Shown here: piece by piece, positions 1-5,346 of the stretch
Numbering within the stretch: position 1 is the first letter of the stretch
Layout of the letters: each line of letters begins with the position of its first letter
Virus record (IMG/VR): IMGVR_UViG_3300018471_000072
DNA: 5,346 bases
From: a virus
Lineage: Duplodnaviria > Heunggongvirae > Uroviricota > Caudoviricetes
Reading direction: 5' to 3' (one strand)
Made by a program: the position numbers and the translations under genes
Notes under the pieces: generated by a model
Told to the model about the DNA's origin: nothing
The model's input: the letters and a program-made list of their open reading frames with translations, nothing else
Database searches by the model: none

Positions 1-37
1 ATCTACACTCTTTCCCTACACGACGCTCTTCCGATCT
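1..37 (+). other. Synthetic Illumina TruSeq universal adapter (3' portion), untrimmed at contig end; not biological sequence
   Basis: Bases 1-37 (ATCTACACTCTTTCCCTACACGACGCTCTTCCGATCT) match, base for base, the 3' end of the TruSeq universal adapter as I recall it. Phage-like coding sequence begins immediately after, at 38. Confidence 0.9.
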
Positions 38-39
38 CT

Positions 40-300
40 CAAAAACTTAAAAATCAGGTAACCGAAGGTAAGCTCATCGATTCAGACTTCTGCGTTTTCG
101 CCCTCAGCAAGCTGGCGATGGCATTGTCCAGTACGCTTGATTCTATTCCGTTATCCATGCAGCGACAGTTCCCGGATTTAACGCCACGTCATATTGACCA
201 TCTGAAAACCCTTATTGCGAAGGGCGCAAATCAGTGTGCGCGGGCAGGGGATAAATTACCGGATTTGCTGGATGAATATATCAGAGCAACAACTGAATAA
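40..300 (+). CDS. nu1: Terminase small subunit, C-terminal part only (5'-truncated by the contig/adapter boundary); lambda Nu1-like
   Basis: Frame 1 is open from the adapter junction to TAA at 298-300. The translation (...DFCVFALSKLAMALSSTLDSIPLSMQRQFPDLTPRHIDHLK...KLPDLLDEYIRATTE) aligns with the C-terminal third of lambda Nu1 as I recall it. The ORF-track start at ATG 118 is an internal Met, not the true start. The 3' end overlaps the start of the terminase large subunit, as in lambda. Confidence 0.8.
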   Translation, partial: QKLKNQVTEGKLIDSDFCVFALSKLAMALSSTLDSIPLSMQRQFPDLTPRHIDHLKTLIAKGANQCARAGDKLPDLLDEYIRATTE

Positions 301-2200
301 TATGATGGCTGCCGTTTCGGTTGCGCTGCAGCCTCTGGTCAGGGTTGTACCAATGACGGCAGTTGAATGGGCTGATCAAAATTATTATCTGCCTAAAGAA
401 TCCTCATACGGTGACGGCGAATGGAAAACGCTGCCGTTCCAGATCGCCATCATGAACAGTATGGGGAATGATCAGATCCGCACTGTTAATCTGATTAAAT
501 CTGCCCGTGTTGGCTATACAAAGATGTTGCTGGGGGTGGTCGGGTATTTTATTGAGCATAAATCCCGAAACAGTCTGCTTTTTCAGCCCACGGATTCTGC
601 CGCTGAAGATTTTATGAAGTCTCACGTGGAGACGACGATTAGGGACGTGCCATGCCTGAAAGACCTTTCCCCATGGCTGGGTCGTAAACATAGTGATAAT
701 ACCCTCACGCTGAAACGCTTTTCATCGGGCGTCGGTTTCTGGTGCCTGGGCGGCGCTGCCGCCAAAAACTACCGTGAAAAATCCGTGGACGTGGTCTGCT
801 ATGACGAACTTTCCTCGTTCGAACCGGATGTTGAAAAAGAGGGTTCGCCAACCCTGCTGGGGGATAAACGTATTGAGGGCTCTGTATGGCCAAAATCCAT
901 TCGCGGCTCGACGCCTAAAATCAAAGGCTCCTGCCAGATCGAAAAAGCCGCTAACGAGTCGGCACATTTCATGCGTTTTTATGTGCCCTGTCCGCACTGT
1001 GGGGAGGAGCAGTATCTGAAATTTGGCGATGAGTCCACGCCTTTTGGGCTTAAATGGGAGAAGGGAAGTCCCGAAAGTGTTTTCTACCTCTGTGAACATC
1101 ATGGCTGCGTGATCCATCAGTCTGAGCCTGACCAGAGCAACGGGCGCTGGATCTGTGAAAACACGGGGATGTGGACCCGTGACGGCCTGATGTTTTTCAG
1201 CGCCCGGGGTGATGAAATTCCGCCGCCGCGCTCCATCACTTTCCATATCTGGACGGCGTACAGTCCGTTCACCACCTGGGTACAGATAGTCTATGACTGG
1301 CTGGATGCACTGAAAGATCCCAACGGCCTGAAAACCTTTGTGAACACCACGCTGGGCGAGACCTGGGAAGAGGCTGTGGGCGAAAAACTCGATCACCAGG
1401 TACTGATGGATAAGGTTGTGCGTTACACGGCGGCGGTGCCTGCCCGGGTGGTTTATCTGACGGCGGGCATTGACTCGCAGCGAAACCGTTTTGAGATGTA
1501 TGTCTGGGGATGGGCTCCGGGAGAGGAAGCCTTTCTGGTGGATAAAATCATCATTATGGGGCGTCCCGATGAGGAAGAGACGCTGTTACGTGTGGATGCG
1601 GCGATCAACAAAAAATACTGCCATGCAGATGGAACCGAAATGACCATTTCCCGTGTCTGCTGGGACACCGGGGGGATCGATGGCGAAATCGTTTATCAGA
1701 GGTCAAAAAAACACGGTGTTTTCCGGGTGCTGCCGGTAAAAGGTGCATCTGTTTATGGCAAGCCGGTGATCACCATGCCAAAAACCCGCAATCAGCGGGG
1801 CGTGTATCTGTGCGAAGTGGGGACGGACACCGCAAAAGAAATTCTCTATGCCCGTATGAAAGCCGATCCCACGCCTGTGGATGAGGCCACGTCGTATGCC
1901 ATCCGTTTTCCTGATGATCCGGAGATTTTTTCGCAGACAGAGGCGCAGCAACTGGTCGCGGAAGAGCTTGTGGAGAAGTGGGAAAAAGGAAAGATGCGTC
2001 TGCTGTGGGATAACAAAAAGCGGCGTAACGAAGCGCTGGACTGCCTGGTGTATGCCTACGCGGCATTACGTGTGTCCGTGCAACGCTGGCAGCTTGATCT
2101 GGCTGTACTGGCAAAATCCCGGGAAGAAGAGACGACCCGGCCAACCCTTAAAGAACTGGCAGCGAAGCTGTCCGGAGGAGTGAATGGTTACAGTCGCTGA
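272..2200 (+). CDS. A: Terminase large subunit (ATPase/endonuclease), lambda gpA-like, 642 aa
   Basis: From ATG 272 the protein starts MNISEQQL..., where lambda gpA starts MNIS..., and similarity runs along the full length (TAVEWADQNYYLPKES, KSARVGYTKMLLG, GFWCLGG.AKNYREKSVDVVCYDE, GDKRIEGSVWPKSIRGSTPK, CPHCGEEQYLKFGD, HIWTAYSPFTTWVQIV, TFVNTTLGETWE, YLTAGIDSQ, KKRRNEALDC). The ORF-track start at TTG 215 is just the first in-frame start after a stop; homology supports ATG 272. Stop TGA at 2198-2200. Confidence 0.95.
   Translation: MNISEQQLNNMMAAVSVALQPLVRVVPMTAVEWADQNYYLPKESSYGDGEWKTLPFQIAIMNSMGNDQIRTVNLIKSARVGYTKMLLGVVGYFIEHKSRNSLLFQPTDSAAEDFMKSHVETTIRDVPCLKDLSPWLGRKHSDNTLTLKRFSSGVGFWCLGGAAAKNYREKSVDVVCYDELSSFEPDVEKEGSPTLLGDKRIEGSVWPKSIRGSTPKIKGSCQIEKAANESAHFMRFYVPCPHCGEEQYLKFGDESTPFGLKWEKGSPESVFYLCEHHGCVIHQSEPDQSNGRWICENTGMWTRDGLMFFSARGDEIPPPRSITFHIWTAYSPFTTWVQIVYDWLDALKDPNGLKTFVNTTLGETWEEAVGEKLDHQVLMDKVVRYTAAVPARVVYLTAGIDSQRNRFEMYVWGWAPGEEAFLVDKIIIMGRPDEEETLLRVDAAINKKYCHADGTEMTISRVCWDTGGIDGEIVYQRSKKHGVFRVLPVKGASVYGKPVITMPKTRNQRGVYLCEVGTDTAKEILYARMKADPTPVDEATSYAIRFPDDPEIFSQTEAQQLVAEELVEKWEKGKMRLLWDNKKRRNEALDCLVYAYAALRVSVQRWQLDLAVLAKSREEETTRPTLKELAAKLSGGVNGYSR
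2174..2180 (+). promoter_or_regulatory. Shine-Dalgarno sequence for the gpW-like gene, lying inside the 3' end of the terminase gene
   Basis: GGAGGAG, 3 nt upstream of ATG 2184. Confidence 0.6.
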
Positions 2201-2390
2201 ACTGCAGGCGCTGCGTCAGGCGCGCCTTGATTTATTAACCGGTAAACGGGTGGTGTCTGTCCAGAAAGATGGTCGCAGAATTGAATATACGGCGGCTTCT
2301 CTGGATGAGCTTAACCGGGCGATCAATGATGCGGAGTCGGTACTGGGGACAACCCGACGTCGCCGTCGTCCGCTGGGAGTGAGGTTATGA
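2184..2390 (+). CDS. W: Head completion / head-tail joining protein, lambda gpW-like, 68 aa
   Basis: 68 aa, the same length as lambda gpW, with clear similarity (LTGKRVVSVQKDGRRIEYTAAS; lambda has [22 protein letters not shown]). GGAGGAG at 2174-2180 sits 3 nt upstream of the ATG. It overlaps the end of the terminase gene by 17 nt and the portal start by ATGA. Confidence 0.85.
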   Translation: MVTVAELQALRQARLDLLTGKRVVSVQKDGRRIEYTAASLDELNRAINDAESVLGTTRRRRRPLGVRL

Positions 2391-3979
2391 AACGAACGCC
2401 TGTCCTGATTGATGTGAACGGCGTTCCGCTTCGGGAGAGCCTCAGCTACCACGGGGGCGGTGCAGGATTTGGCGGGCAAATGGCGGAGTGGTTGCCACCG
2501 GCGCAGAGTGCCGATGCGGCCCTGCTGCCCGCGTTGCGTCTGGGGAATGCCCGTGCAGATGATCTGGTACGCAATAACGGGATAGCGGCTAATGCGGTGG
2601 CCCTGCATAAGGATCATATTGTCGGGCATATGTTTCTGATCAGCTACCGTCCGAACTGGCGCTGGCTGGGGATGCGGGAGACTGCGGCAAAAAGTTTTGT
2701 CGATGAGGTGGAGGCGGCCTGGTCGGAATACGCAGAAGGGATGTCTGGCGAGATCGACGTGGAAGGGAAACGCACGTTTACGGAATTTATCCGTGAAGGT
2801 GTGGGCGTTCATGCGTTTAACGGCGAAATCTTTGTGCAGCCTGTCTGGGACACGGAGAGCACGCAGCTGTTTCGTACGCGTTTTAAAGCCGTGAGTCCGG
2901 AACGGGTGGACACGCCAGGACACGGTATGGGGAACCGTTTTCTGCGGGCCGGGGTGGAGGTCGATCGGCATGGCCGTGCAGTTGCGTACCATATCTGTGA
3001 GGATGATTTTCCGTTCTCTGGGAGTGGACGATGGGAACGGATCCCGCGTGAACTTCCCACCGGGCGCCCGGCCATGCTGCATATTTTCGAGCCGGTGGAG
3101 GACGGGCAGACCCGTGGGGCTAATCAGTTTTACAGCGTCATGGAACGGCTGAAGATGCTCGATTCCCTGCAGGCAACACAGCTTCAGTCGGCCATTGTCA
3201 AGGCAATGTATGCAGCGACGATTGAAAGTGACCTTGATACCGAAAAGGCCTTTGAATATATCGCGGGGGCACCGCAGGGTCAGAAGGATAATCCGCTCAT
3301 TAATATTCTGGAGAAGTTCTCCACCTGGTATGACACGAATAGCGTGACGCTGGGTGGTGTCAAAATTCCGCACCTTTTCCCCGGGGATGATCTGAAACTG
3401 CAGACCGCGCAGGATTCAGACAATGGATTTTCTGCGCTTGAACAGGCGCTGCTGCGGTATATCGCCGCCGGTCTTGGCGTTTCCTACGAACAGTTGTCCC
3501 GTGACTACTCGAAGGTCAGTTACTCAAGTGCCCGCGCCTCCGCCAATGAGTCGTGGCGCTATTTTATGGGGCGGCGAAAATTTATTGCGGCCCGGCTGGC
3601 CACGCAGATGTTTTCCTGCTGGCTGGAAGAGGCACTTCTTCGGGGGATTATTCGTCCGCCACGGGCGCGTTTTGATTTTTATCAGGCGCGTTCAGCCTGG
3701 TCACGGGCCGAGTGGATTGGTGCCGGAAGAATGGCCATTGACGGGCTCAAGGAAGTCCAGGAATCGGTGATGCGTATTGATTCCGGACTGAGCACGTATG
3801 AGAAAGAGCTGGCGCTGATGGGTGAGGATTATCAGGACATTTTCCGCCAGCAGGTCAGGGAATCCGCAGAGCGGGAAAAGGCCGGACTCTCACGTCCGGT
3901 GTGGATAGCACAGGCGTATCAGCAGCAGATAGCGGAGAGCCGCAGGCCGGAAGAGGAGACAACACCACGTGAGACGTAA
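2387..3979 (+). CDS. B: Portal protein, lambda gpB-like, 530 aa
   Basis: Similarity to lambda gpB (533 aa) along the whole length (YHGGGAGFGGQ, GNARADDLVRNNG.AANA, TWDT, FEPVEDGQTRGANQFYSVME, LQSAIVKAMYAATIES, LLRYIAAGLGVSYEQLSR, SYSSARASANESW.YFMGRRKF, WIGAGRMAIDGLKEVQE, GLSTYEKE). ATG 2387 overlaps the gpW stop; stop TAA at 3977-3979. Confidence 0.95.
   Translation: MKRTPVLIDVNGVPLRESLSYHGGGAGFGGQMAEWLPPAQSADAALLPALRLGNARADDLVRNNGIAANAVALHKDHIVGHMFLISYRPNWRWLGMRETAAKSFVDEVEAAWSEYAEGMSGEIDVEGKRTFTEFIREGVGVHAFNGEIFVQPVWDTESTQLFRTRFKAVSPERVDTPGHGMGNRFLRAGVEVDRHGRAVAYHICEDDFPFSGSGRWERIPRELPTGRPAMLHIFEPVEDGQTRGANQFYSVMERLKMLDSLQATQLQSAIVKAMYAATIESDLDTEKAFEYIAGAPQGQKDNPLINILEKFSTWYDTNSVTLGGVKIPHLFPGDDLKLQTAQDSDNGFSALEQALLRYIAAGLGVSYEQLSRDYSKVSYSSARASANESWRYFMGRRKFIAARLATQMFSCWLEEALLRGIIRPPRARFDFYQARSAWSRAEWIGAGRMAIDGLKEVQESVMRIDSGLSTYEKELALMGEDYQDIFRQQVRESAEREKAGLSRPVWIAQAYQQQIAESRRPEEETTPRET
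3954..3958 (+). promoter_or_regulatory. Shine-Dalgarno sequence for the gpC-like gene, lying inside the 3' end of the portal gene
   Basis: AGGAG, 10 nt upstream of GTG 3969, which is the first start codon in the open frame. Confidence 0.5.
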
Positions 3980-5346
3980 TCTTTCACACATTATTGCCGC
4001 AGCATTCAATGAACCGCTGCTTCTGGAGCCCGCCTATGCGCGGGTTTTCTTTTGCGCGCTCGGGCGCGAGATGGGGGCAGCAAGTCTTTCGGTACCACAA
4101 CAACAGGTACAGCTTGATGCTCCCGGAATGCTGGCTGAAACGGACGAGTATATGGCCGGAGGTAAACGACCGGCCCGTGTTTACCGGGTGGTGAACGGTA
4201 TTGCTGTACTGCCGGTGACCGGCACGCTGGTGCACCGTCTGGGTGGTATGCGGCCATTTTCCGGAATGACAGGCTATGACGGCATTGTCGCCTGTCTTCA
4301 GCAGGCAATGGCGGATAGCCAGGTGCGTGGCGTACTGCTGGACATTGACAGTCCGGGCGGGCAGGCCGCCGGCGCGTTTGACTGCGCTGACATGATTTAC
4401 CGCCTCCGTCAGCAGAAGCCGGTCTGGGCACTGTGCAATGACACGGCCTGTTCTGCAGCCATGCTGCTGGCGTCGGCCTGCTCCCGACGGCTGGTTACCC
4501 AGACATCCCGTATCGGCTCCATTGGCGTGATGATGAGCCATGTCAGCTATGCCGGTCATCTGGCGCAGGCCGGTGTGGATATCACGCTGATTTACGCCGG
4601 GGCGCATAAGGTGGATGGCAATCAGTTTGAAGCGTTGCCGGCAGAAGTTCGCCAGGACATGCAGCAGCGGATTGATGCGGCACACCGGATGTTTGCCGAA
4701 AAAGTGGCGATGTATACCGGTCTGTCTGTTGATGCCGTCACGGGAACAGAGGCCGCCGTTTTTGAAGGTCAGTACGGCATTGATGCCGGGCTGGCGGATG
4801 AATTAGTCAATGCGTCGGATGCCATCAGTGTGATGGCCACGGCGCTGAACAGTAATGTCAGAGGAGGCACTATGCCGCAATTAACTGCAACGGAAGCCGC
4901 CGCGCAGGAGAACCAGCGAGTGATGGGGATCCTGACATGCCAGGAAGCGAAAGGACGTGAACAGCTTGCCACGATGCTGGCAGGACAACAGGGCATGAGC
5001 GTTGAACAGGCCCGGGCGATTCTGTCCGCGGCAGCACCACAGCAACCGGTGGCATCCTCGCAGAGTGAAGCCGATCGCATTATGGCGTGTGAAGAGGCTA
5101 AAGGTCGTGAACAACTGGCGGCAACGCTGGCGGCGATGCCGGAGATGACGGTGGAAAAAGCCCGCCCGATCCTGGCTGCTTCACCGCAGGCGGATGCCGG
5201 ACCCTCACTCCGTGATCAGATCATGGCACTGGATGAGGCAAAAGGGGCTGAGGCGCAGGCTGAACAGCTGGCTGCCTGCCCGGGAATGACAGTGGAGAGC
5301 GCCCGGGCTGTGCTGGCTGCGGGATCAGGTAAGGCAGAACAGATCG
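3969..5346 (+). CDS. C: Prohead protease / scaffold protein, lambda gpC-like (S49/ClpP-like serine protease family), 3'-incomplete (runs off the window end)
   Basis: Frame 3 is open from the TAG at 3930-3932 to the window end. The first start codon is GTG 3969, preceded by AGGAG at 3954-3958 with a 10-nt spacer. The translation (MRRNLSHIIAAAFNEPLLLEPAYARVFFCAL...VVNGIAVLPVTGTL...FSGMTGYDGIV...LLDIDSPGG.AAGAFDCAD...KPVWALCNDTACSAAMLLASA.SRRLVTQTSRIGSIGVMM...GLADELVN.SDAI) aligns with lambda gpC. It is absent from the ORF track only because no stop codon falls inside the window. Confidence 0.9.
   Translation, partial: MRRNLSHIIAAAFNEPLLLEPAYARVFFCALGREMGAASLSVPQQQVQLDAPGMLAETDEYMAGGKRPARVYRVVNGIAVLPVTGTLVHRLGGMRPFSGMTGYDGIVACLQQAMADSQVRGVLLDIDSPGGQAAGAFDCADMIYRLRQQKPVWALCNDTACSAAMLLASACSRRLVTQTSRIGSIGVMMSHVSYAGHLAQAGVDITLIYAGAHKVDGNQFEALPAEVRQDMQQRIDAAHRMFAEKVAMYTGLSVDAVTGTEAAVFEGQYGIDAGLADELVNASDAISVMATALNSNVRGGTMPQLTATEAAAQENQRVMGILTCQEAKGREQLATMLAGQQGMSVEQARAILSAAAPQQPVASSQSEADRIMACEEAKGREQLAATLAAMPEMTVEKARPILAASPQADAGPSLRDQIMALDEAKGAEAQAEQLAACPGMTVESARAVLAAGSGKAEQI
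4861..4867 (+). promoter_or_regulatory. Internal Shine-Dalgarno sequence for the putative nested scaffold start
   Basis: GAGGAGG, 4 nt upstream of in-frame ATG 4872, inside the gpC-like reading frame. Confidence 0.5.
4872..5346 (+). CDS. Possible nested in-frame scaffold protein (lambda Nu3-like), translated from an internal start in the gpC-like frame; 3'-incomplete
   Basis: In-frame ATG at 4872 is preceded by a strong Shine-Dalgarno GAGGAGG (4861-4867) with a 4-nt spacer. Its position after the protease domain matches where lambda Nu3 initiates inside gene C (lambda ...SGGRMTKETQ..., here ...VRGGTMPQLTA...). Inference by analogy, no expression evidence. Confidence 0.45.
   Translation, partial: MPQLTATEAAAQENQRVMGILTCQEAKGREQLATMLAGQQGMSVEQARAILSAAAPQQPVASSQSEADRIMACEEAKGREQLAATLAAMPEMTVEKARPILAASPQADAGPSLRDQIMALDEAKGAEAQAEQLAACPGMTVESARAVLAAGSGKAEQI
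4908..5346 (+). repeat. Three tandem in-frame copies of a ~47-53 aa motif in the scaffold (C-terminal) region of the gpC-like protein; diverged at the DNA level
   Basis: Translated copies: (1) ENQRVMGILTCQEAKGREQLATMLAGQQGMSVEQARAILSAAAPQQ, (2) EADRIMACEEAKGREQLAATLAAMPEMTVEKARPILAASPQAD, (3) RDQIMALDEAKGAEAQAEQLAACPGMTVESARAVLAAGSG. The IM codons lie at 4920-4925, 5079-5084 and 5220-5225, giving spacings of 159 and 141 nt. The third copy reaches the window edge. Confidence 0.65.

What the first reader, a model, noticed from the sequence alone, without database searches (positions are those of the whole stretch)
4908..5346. Three tandem copies of a scaffold-domain motif in the gpC/Nu3-like protein
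The C-terminal region contains three consecutive, clearly related ~50-aa units with a shared core (R/Q-I/V-M ... EAKG-R/A-E ... LA ... P-G/E-M-T/S-V-E-x-A-R-x-I/V-L-A-A). As I recall lambda gpC/Nu3, it carries one such unit (RIMGILNCEEAHGREEQARVLAETPGMTVKTARRILAAAP). The copies are diverged in DNA sequence, so this is an old duplication kept in frame, not a recent slippage or assembly artifact. An expanded scaffold domain could change procapsid assembly stoichiometry or capsid-protein contacts. The third copy hits the window edge, so the true copy number may be higher.
Basis: partly seen in the sequence, partly recalled or inferred. Interest (0 to 1): 0.55.

Follow-up and report, generated by a model that had tools for sequence, protein, structure and literature searches.

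The report
Known triple repeat in phage scaffold
The three related ~45-residue units are real, but they are the "Tri boxes" already annotated in 1993 in the head protease/scaffold gene of coliphage 21, a prophage head module carried by about a third of complete E. coli genomes, so the finding is correct but ordinary.

Summary
Window 4908-5340 encodes three tandem, in-frame, diverged copies of a ~40-residue motif (pairwise z = 10-17 against shuffles). The copies are 54-63% identical in DNA. They lie in the C-terminal part of a lambda gpC-like S49 prohead protease and in its nested Nu3-like scaffold frame.

It is not new. The window is 98% identical to coliphage 21, whose GenBank record M81255.1 annotates the same segments as "Tri1 box / Tri box / Tri3 box; function unknown". 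The uninterrupted three-unit segment matches in 1864 of 5426 complete E. coli genomes, and Salmonella Gifsy-1 also has three units. Lambda, N15, phi80 and most other S49 prohead proteases have one.

The copy number is not higher. In relatives, unit 3 is followed by a ~47-residue non-repeat tail and a stop. The window ends where it does because the contig carries Illumina adapter remnants at both ends (1-37 and 5341-5346).

What I added:
- Close E. coli relatives vary between 2, ~2.5, 3 and 4 units.
- AlphaFold predicts each unit as a separate small helical domain joined by flexible linkers.
- Unit 1 corresponds to lambda's single unit.

The function has not been tested. My best inference is that the units are multivalent docking modules that hold protease and scaffold inside the procapsid.

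The parts
3969..5340 (+). 5' 457 codons of a phage 21 gene 5 / lambda gene C homologue: an S49 prohead protease with a C-terminal scaffold region. It has a GTG start overlapping the end of the portal gene and is cut off by the contig end.
   Evidence: 98% nt identity to phage 21 M81255.1/OL657228.1, where the CDS starts at the equivalent position. Pfam Peptidase_S49 E=3.7e-35 on the 501-aa E. coli homologue, residues 146-293. Alignment with lambda gpC.
4861..4867 (+). Shine-Dalgarno sequence GAGGAGG for the nested in-frame scaffold gene.
   Evidence: Read from the sequence. The equivalent position in M81255.1 and OL657228.1 is annotated as a putative ribosome-binding site.
4872..5340 (+). Nested in-frame ORF equivalent to phage 21 gene 6 (the lambda Nu3 analogue, a scaffolding protein). 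ATG at 4872. All three units lie inside it.
   Evidence: Gene 6 CDS in M81255.1 and 'scaffolding protein' in OL657228.1 start at the equivalent base. Expression was not tested here.
4908..5039 (+). Unit 1 (residues 314-357). It contains the annotated 'Tri1 box' (window-equivalent 4939-5042) and corresponds to lambda's single unit.
   Evidence: It is 58% identical to lambda's unit and shares a 3-residue V/I-M-G insertion with it. It is 74-81% identical to unit 1 of other three-unit lineages. AlphaFold pLDDT is about 90.
5040..5066 (+). Linker 1 (QQPVASSQS).
   Evidence: pLDDT below 50 at model residues 57-63.
5067..5186 (+). Unit 2 (residues 367-406). It contains the annotated 'Tri box' (window-equivalent 5079-5189).
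5187..5207 (+). Linker 2 (QADAGPS).
   Evidence: Confidence dips here: the 10-residue block 101-110 has mean pLDDT 67.
5208..5327 (+). Unit 3 (residues 414-453). It contains the annotated 'Tri3 box' (window-equivalent 5220-5333). It reads GAE where almost all other units read GRE.
5341..5346 (.). AGATCG, the start of Illumina adapter read-through (AGATCGGAAGAGC...). Not phage sequence.
   Evidence: Every E. coli record listed stops matching at 5340. The last 31 nt have no exact match in genome contigs or viral contigs. String check; the adapter sequence itself is from my own knowledge.
1..37 (.). The last 37 nt of the Illumina TruSeq universal adapter. This shows that the window is a short-read contig with adapter remnants.
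   Evidence: the adapter sequence itself is from my own knowledge.

Best explanation
The region is the C-terminal scaffold portion of a coliphage-21-type head protease gene. This is phage 21 gene 5, the lambda C analogue, together with its nested in-frame gene 6, the Nu3 analogue. It carries the three previously annotated 'Tri boxes'.

Shown here:
- Each unit is an independent ~40-residue module predicted to fold into a small helical domain: helix, conserved E-A-K-G-R-E turn, then two helices. Flexible linkers join the units like beads on a string.
- One such unit followed by a ~40-70-residue tail is the usual C-terminal arrangement of S49 prohead proteases.
- The phage 21/Gifsy-1 head-module lineage triplicated the unit long ago. 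Unit 1 corresponds to lambda's single copy.

Inferred, not shown:
- Protease and scaffold share this C-terminal module, and lambda Nu3 is reported to contact the major capsid protein E, the portal, gpC and itself. The unit is therefore most likely the docking module that holds both proteins on the inner surface of the assembling procapsid, or to each other.
- Three copies would then give a multivalent tether.
- After shell assembly the S49 protease would degrade scaffold and itself, as in lambda, removing the units.
For: Identity:
- 98.0% nt identity over window 3900-5340 to phage 21.
- M81255.1 annotates repeat_regions Tri1 box, Tri box and Tri3 box in gene 6 at positions equivalent to window 4939-5042, 5079-5189 and 5220-5333.
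- Gene order is terminase, W-like, portal, then this gene. In relatives, decoration and major capsid genes follow.

Repeat statistics: z = 10-17.

One unit is the norm:
- Of the 53 full-length proteins (at least 380 aa) among the best 150 representatives, 51 have one unit, 1 has two and 1 has three. The tail after the last unit has a median of 53 aa.
- 167 isolated phage records carry the unit in 187 places. Lambda, N15, phi80, 434 and phages of Aeromonas, Vibrio, Proteus and Burkholderia show one place. Only phage-21-type records show more.

Old triplication:
- Unit 1 copies cluster across lineages at 67-81% identity.
- Gifsy-1, about 72% nt identity, has three units.
- Synonymous sites between units appear largely randomised.

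Fold: AlphaFold2 with a 137-sequence alignment gives mean pLDDT 80.6 and three helical modules. pTM is 0.36 and the linkers are low-confidence, so no fixed arrangement between units is predicted.

Conserved surface motif: E25, A26, G28 and R29 are nearly invariant across 137 sequences.

Partners: Nu3-E, Nu3-Nu3, Nu3-C and Nu3-B interactions are compiled in PMC3224144.
Against: - No experiment or structure assigns a partner to the unit. The GenBank note itself says 'function unknown; putative'.
- No PDB entry shares sequence with it.
- Near-identical E. coli proteins with 2, ~2.5, 3 or 4 units exist, so three copies are not demonstrably required.
- Unit 3 of the E. coli lineage has lost the near-invariant Arg (GAE instead of GRE), which may mean relaxed constraint.
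- By my recollection lambda gpNu3 was described biophysically as largely intrinsically disordered (Medina et al. 2011, which I could not read here). That fits long linkers but urges caution about the predicted fold.
Confidence: 0.85

Rival explanations
1. The extra units (2 and 3) are functionally near-neutral filler or spacer. Only one unit, or only the tail, does the work, and the array expands and contracts by unequal recombination without consequence.
For: - Among proteins 82-96% identical to the three-unit form there are variants of 451/452 aa (2 units), 472/482 aa (about 2.5 units, unit halves fused) and 551 aa (4 units). The 482-aa cluster was seen on at least 1000 contigs.
- Unit 3 lacks the near-invariant Arg.
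- Lambda Nu3 (201 aa) and phage 21 gp6 (200 aa) are almost the same length although built differently. This is compatible with selection on overall length rather than on unit number.
Against: - All three units have kept the motif while synonymous sites appear largely randomised.
- The three-unit state is conserved between E. coli 21-like phages, Gifsy-1 and more distant lineages such as P0122, P0124 and P0121.
- That pattern indicates purifying selection on each unit.
- It is not known whether the prophages carrying the variants are viable.
Confidence: 0.3
2. The units are self-association modules that dimerise or oligomerise scaffold and protease, rather than capsid-binding modules.
For: Nu3-Nu3 and C-Nu3 interactions were reported by two-hybrid assay and by personal communication (PMC3224144). 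The unit is the only strongly conserved element shared by the two proteins.
Against: AlphaFold does not pack the three units of one chain against each other (pTM 0.36). No oligomer prediction could be run here. The Nu3-E interaction is also reported.
Confidence: 0.2
3. The units bind the portal and serve to incorporate it at the nucleating vertex.
For: In lambda, Nu3 is required for incorporation of B into procapsids (Ray and Murialdo 1975, as listed in PMC3224144).
Against: There is no evidence at the level of the unit. By my recollection roughly 200 scaffold copies per procapsid were reported for lambda (not checked here), which does not fit a role limited to the portal.
Confidence: 0.08
4. 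The apparent repeat is due to chance, low-complexity (Ala-rich) composition or an assembly artefact.
For: The region is Ala-rich, and the contig has adapter remnants at both ends.
Against: - Composition-preserving shuffles never reach the observed scores (0 of 2000).
- The same three units occur in finished phage and bacterial genomes.
Confidence: 0.01

Closest known systems
Coliphage 21 genes 5 and 6, head protease and nested scaffold, with Tri1/Tri/Tri3 boxes (GenBank M81255.1; by my recollection Smith & Feiss, Gene 1993; complete genome OL657228.1)
   Same: 98% nt identity. Same reading frame, same nested start with Shine-Dalgarno sequence, and the same three units at the same positions.
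   Different: A few substitutions only, for example K versus N in unit 2 (EEAKG versus EEANG). The window lacks the last 134 nt of the gene because the contig ends there.
Lambda gpC / Nu3 (NC_001416 4418-5737 and 5132-5737)
   Same: S49 protease with a nested in-frame scaffold. It has a homologous unit (58% identical to unit 1) followed by a tail that is related through intermediates: lambda against P0132 z = 5.3, and P0132 against phage 21 z = 10.4.
   Different: Lambda has one unit instead of three, plus a ~36-residue extra linker before it. Its Nu3 start (Met239) is an ATT Ile codon in the window. The phage-21-type nested start is 67 codons further downstream.
Salmonella prophage Gifsy-1 gpC homologue (STM2605)
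   Same: 498 aa with three units plus tail, in the same gene neighbourhood.
   Different: Only about 72% nt identity. Its unit 3 keeps the GRE motif.
P22 gp8 scaffolding protein, C-terminal helix-turn-helix coat-binding domain
   Same: Possible functional analogy: a small helical module near the C-terminus of an internal scaffold that docks onto the coat protein (as described in PMC11922011).
   Different: No detectable sequence relation (hhalign probability 0.8%). P22 has one module and no fused protease.

Membership tests
Phage 21 gp5/gp6-type (lambda gpC/Nu3-type) prohead protease-scaffold | S49 (SppA-like) peptidase domain in the N-terminal two thirds | tested here: met
   PF01343 E=3.7e-35, above cut-off, on the 501-aa E. 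coli homologue, which is about 98% identical to the window protein across this domain. PHROG 53 'head maturation protease' E=3e-229.
Phage 21 gp5/gp6-type (lambda gpC/Nu3-type) prohead protease-scaffold | Gene lies directly after, and overlaps, the portal gene in a terminase-W-portal-C-D-E head operon | tested here: met
   Window ORFs: terminase large subunit to 2200, W-like 2184-2390, portal 2387-3979, and this gene from 3969. The decoration and major capsid genes are seen only in relatives.
Phage 21 gp5/gp6-type (lambda gpC/Nu3-type) prohead protease-scaffold | Nested in-frame scaffold gene with its own ribosome-binding site | tested here: inconclusive
   GAGGAGG at 4861-4867 and ATG at 4872 are present, matching the putative annotation in phage 21. 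Translation from this start cannot be tested with these tools.
Phage 21 gp5/gp6-type (lambda gpC/Nu3-type) prohead protease-scaffold | Three 'Tri box' repeats in the shared C-terminal region | tested here: met
   The annotated boxes map onto units 1-3. Repeat statistics.
Phage 21 gp5/gp6-type (lambda gpC/Nu3-type) prohead protease-scaffold | Non-repeat C-terminal tail (...FEHFMANHSPAAV...DVKMLMAMP) after the last unit | not testable with these tools
   The contig ends at 5340, in the seventh codon (GAA C..) after unit 3. The tail is present in every full-length close relative examined.
P22-type scaffold coat-binding helix-turn-helix | Sequence or profile similarity to the gp8 C-terminal domain | tested here: not met
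   hhalign probability 0.8%; hmmsearch score about 0 bits.
Helix-hairpin-helix motif (Pfam PF00633) | Score above the Pfam gathering threshold | tested here: not met
   Best hit 16.8 bits against a cut-off of 24, on unit 3 only.

The most novel reading that the evidence does not exclude
The number of units (2, ~2.5, 3 or 4 in natural E. coli prophages) is a recombination-prone, selectable setting. It would fix how many contacts the scaffold and protease make with the procapsid, and so tune assembly efficiency, protease loading or compatibility with different capsid-protein alleles. Independent recent duplications in other lineages would be the same process repeating: P0127/P0132 units are 88% identical, and P0144 units 63%.
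Probability: 0.12. Interest if true: 0.5.

Novelty: already known. Interest (0 to 1): 0.15.

Why it matters
As a discovery it matters little. The triplication has been in GenBank since the early 1990s, and it sits in one of the commonest prophage head modules of E. coli.

The open point is function. The unit is the most conserved part of the C-terminal region of S49 prohead proteases and lambda-type scaffolds. No solved structure shares sequence with it, and no binding partner has been assigned to it.

The natural 1-, 2-, 3- and 4-unit series found here gives ready-made material for testing how lambda-type scaffolds and proteases are anchored in the procapsid.

Tried and rejected
- Tandem Repeats Finder and DNA repeat search found no DNA-level array, because the copies are too diverged.
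- Looking up the exact portal protein to recover the source contig found nothing on record.
- An exact search for the last 31 nt of the window in genome contigs and viral contigs gave 0 hits. The adapter tail later explained this.
- The single-sequence AlphaFold model was unusable, with pLDDT 42.
- PDB sequence search gave no hit at E up to 1.
- Homology to the P22 scaffold coat-binding domain was rejected.
- The Pfam HHH hit is below threshold.
- Direct similarity between the lambda and phage 21 tails is not significant (z = -0.4). It appears only through the intermediate P0132.
- Literature: Smith & Feiss 1993 (Gene), Medina et al. 2010 and 2011, and PMC204528 are not held. The text searches I ran for phage 21 head-gene and scaffold papers found no paper that discusses the repeats.
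- A tblastn search of isolated phages for the P0132 lineage (near-identical units) found no close match.

Full report
**1. What is in the window**

The window carries lambdoid head genes on the + strand:
- a terminase large-subunit gene ending at 2200;
- a W-like gene at 2184-2390;
- a portal gene at 2387-3979.

From GTG 3969 an open frame runs off the end of the window. This frame aligns along its length with lambda gpC and is nearly identical to phage 21 gp5. A 501-aa E. coli homologue hits Pfam Peptidase_S49 at E=3.7e-35 (residues 146-293) and PHROG 53 'head maturation protease' at E=3e-229.

**2.

Residues 314-453 of this frame (nt 4908-5327) form three consecutive related units separated by short linkers.
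- Pairwise Smith-Waterman scores are 107, 80 and 102. Composition-preserving shuffles average about 25 (sd about 5), so z = 10.3-16.8. None of 2000 shuffles reached the observed score.
- Sixteen alignment columns are invariant across the three units.
- At the DNA level the units are 54-63% identical. Only 33-48% of conserved residues use the same codon.
- This divergence is why Tandem Repeats Finder reports nothing and the repeat finder gives only 12-19-nt matches.
- Lambda gpC has exactly one unit.

**3. It is already known**

Window 3900-5340 is 98.0-98.2% identical to coliphage 21 and several related isolates. The alignment is ungapped, with an offset of +2399. The boxes therefore map to window 4939-5042, 5079-5189 and 5220-5333, which are the cores of units 1-3.

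The same record and the 2022 complete genome OL657228.1 annotate two genes here:
- gene 5, the full-length protease/scaffold, starting at the equivalent of window 3969;
- a nested in-frame gene 6, the scaffold or Nu3 analogue, starting at the equivalent of window ATG 4872, preceded by GAGGAGG at 4861-4867.

I recall that the record derives from Smith & Feiss, Gene 1993. I could not retrieve that paper, so what it says about the boxes is unverified here.

**4. How common it is**

- A 661-nt query spanning unit 1 to the end of the gene matches, with at least 80% coverage, in 1864 of 5426 complete E. coli genomes. In 58 of 60 records sampled evenly down the ranking, the match is one uninterrupted piece covering 99-100% of the query.
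- E. coli Nissle 1917 and strain JCKP02 encode a 501-aa protein with three units.
- Salmonella Gifsy-1 is only about 72% identical in DNA and also has three units in a 498-aa protein.

**5. The copy number is not higher than three**

In every full-length close relative examined, unit 3 is followed by GSGKAEPVSASTTAMFEHFMANHSPAAVQGGVAQTSADGDADVKMLMAMP and a stop. The unit profile finds no fourth copy there.

The window ends where it does for a technical reason:
- Bases 1-37 are the 3' end of the Illumina TruSeq universal adapter.
- Bases 5341-5346 (AGATCG) are the start of adapter read-through (adapter sequences from my own knowledge).
- Every E. coli record listed stops matching at 5340.
- The last 31 nt occur nowhere in the collections searched.

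**6. Wider distribution of the unit**

A profile of the three units was searched against 1.84 billion representative proteins. It found 447 clusters at E up to 1e-3. Among the best 150, 53 are full-length (at least 380 aa). Of these, 51 carry one unit, one carries two and one carries three. The unit is followed by a tail with a median of 53 residues.

In isolated phages, 167 records hold the unit in 187 places. Lambda, N15, phi80, HK225, 434, Stx1a phages and phages of Aeromonas, Vibrio, Proteus, Serratia, Burkholderia and others show one place each. Only phage-21-type records show more.

The general architecture is therefore S49 protease, linker, one unit, tail. The triple array is a peculiarity of one lineage.

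Other multi-unit lineages exist:
- P0122 (505 aa), P0124 and P0121 each have three units.
- P0144 has two units that are 63% identical to each other.
- P0127 and P0132 are E. coli 'S49 peptidase, partial' fragments, mostly from very short contigs. The two units of P0127 are 88% identical to each other.

Unit 1 of all three-unit lineages clusters together at 67-81% identity. It shares with lambda's unit a three-residue V/I-M-G insertion that units 2 and 3 lack. The triplication therefore predates the divergence of these lineages, and unit 1 is the counterpart of lambda's copy. The P0127 and P0144 duplications look independent and more recent.

**7. Copy-number polymorphism**

This was not in the finding. 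I scanned the 120 closest protein clusters with a unit HMM. The variants are:

| Protein length | Units | How it differs from the 501-aa form |
|---|---|---|
| 501 aa | 3 | the phage 21 form |
| 452 aa | 2 | clean loss of unit 2 |
| 451 aa | 2 | unit 1/unit 2 hybrid, joined within CQEA-K/N-GREQLA |
| 482 aa | about 2.5 | C-terminal half of unit 2 missing; this cluster was seen on at least 1000 contigs |
| 472 aa | about 2.5 | unit 1 joined to the C-terminal half of unit 2 |
| 551 aa | 4 | duplication joined at PGMT/PEMT |
| 657 aa | 6 profile matches, one partial | a single record with a larger internal duplication; possibly an artefact |

Two further proteins (577 and 721 aa) are fusions to tail-fibre-like sequence directly after unit 3. 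These presumably come from prophages that have suffered deletions. All junctions lie at short stretches shared between units, as expected for unequal recombination. Whether the variant prophages are viable is unknown.

**8. Structure**

- No PDB chain shares sequence with the scaffold region.
- AlphaFold2 with a 137-sequence alignment, run on window 4872-5345, gives mean pLDDT 80.6. Blocks of about 90 cover unit 1 and blocks of 82-87 cover units 2 and 3.
- Each unit is predicted as a helix, a short turn at E-A-K, and two further helices.
- Confidence is low at 57-63 and dips near 101-110. pTM is only 0.36, so the model shows three independently folded modules without a fixed mutual arrangement.
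- Profile comparison with the P22 scaffolding protein is negative.
- Across 137 sequences the nearly invariant positions include E25, A26, G28 and R29, part of the E-A-x-G-R-E turn motif, together with hydrophobic positions.
- Unit 3 of the E. coli lineage reads GAE instead of GRE. Unit 3 of Gifsy-1 and of P0121, P0122 and P0124 keeps GRE.

**9. How it probably works (inference)**

The unit and tail form the only region shared by the protease and the nested scaffold. In lambda, Nu3 is reported to interact with E, B, C and itself (PMC3224144). Other phage scaffolds dock onto the coat protein through small helical modules (PMC11922011).

My best reading is that each unit is a docking module. It would anchor scaffold and protease to the inner face of the procapsid, or to each other. 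Three copies would make the anchoring multivalent. The protease would then clear these proteins after assembly.

The main rival is that the extra units are near-neutral filler. The 2-4-unit polymorphism and the degenerate unit 3 support that reading. Long-term conservation of all three units across divergent lineages argues against it. Self-association and portal binding remain possible. None of these could be tested with the available tools.

**10. Verdict**

The feature is a known, annotated and very common property of phage-21-type head modules, and the suspected extra copies do not exist in relatives. Interest is low. The residual value lies in the untested function of the unit and in the natural copy-number series.

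Noticed in passing
window 1-37 and 5341-5346: Illumina adapter remnants at both contig ends. 1-37 is the 3' end of the TruSeq universal adapter, and 5341-5346 (AGATCG) is the start of adapter read-through. Genuine phage DNA is 38-5340, and the last two translated residues are artefactual.
   Followed up: yes
window 5208-5327 (unit 3), codon for residue 431: Unit 3 reads E-A-K-G-A-E, where almost all other units in 137 aligned sequences read G-R-E. Unit 3 of Gifsy-1, P0121, P0122 and P0124 keeps the Arg. This may be a degenerate copy in the E. coli 21-like lineage.
   Followed up: partly
window 4671-4673 versus 4872-4874: Lambda's Nu3 start (Met239 of gpC) corresponds to an ATT Ile codon in the window. 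The phage-21-type nested start is 67 codons further downstream, yet lambda Nu3 (201 aa) and phage 21 gp6 (200 aa) are almost the same length. This could be coincidence or a constraint on scaffold length.
   Followed up: partly
proteins P0002/P0003 (551 aa), P0038 (482 aa), P0086 (451 aa), P0110 (452 aa), P0108 (472 aa): In-frame gain and loss of units or half-units among close E. coli relatives (82-96% identical), with junctions at short stretches shared between units. The 482-aa form (about 2.5 units) was seen on at least 1000 contigs.
   Followed up: partly
proteins P0080 (721 aa), P0083 (577 aa): The gpC-like protein is fused, directly after unit 3 (…AAGSG), to tail-fibre-like sequence. This presumably reflects prophages with internal deletions that removed the rest of the head and tail genes.
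   Followed up: no
proteins P0127, P0132, P0296-P0305: A second E. coli lineage, seen so far only as 'S49 family peptidase, partial' fragments, many from contigs of about 250-600 bp. Its consecutive units are about 88% identical to each other (P0127), and such near-identical repeats may break short-read assemblies. Its full copy number is unknown, and no close match was found among isolated phages.
   Followed up: partly
L002 (OL657228.1) 2478-2491 and 2712-2725, equivalent to window about 4877-4890 and 5111-5124, minus strand: The phage 21 genome record annotates two 'CII binding site' pattern matches (ttgyN6ttgy) inside the scaffold region. They are probably just pattern hits and were not examined.
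   Followed up: no
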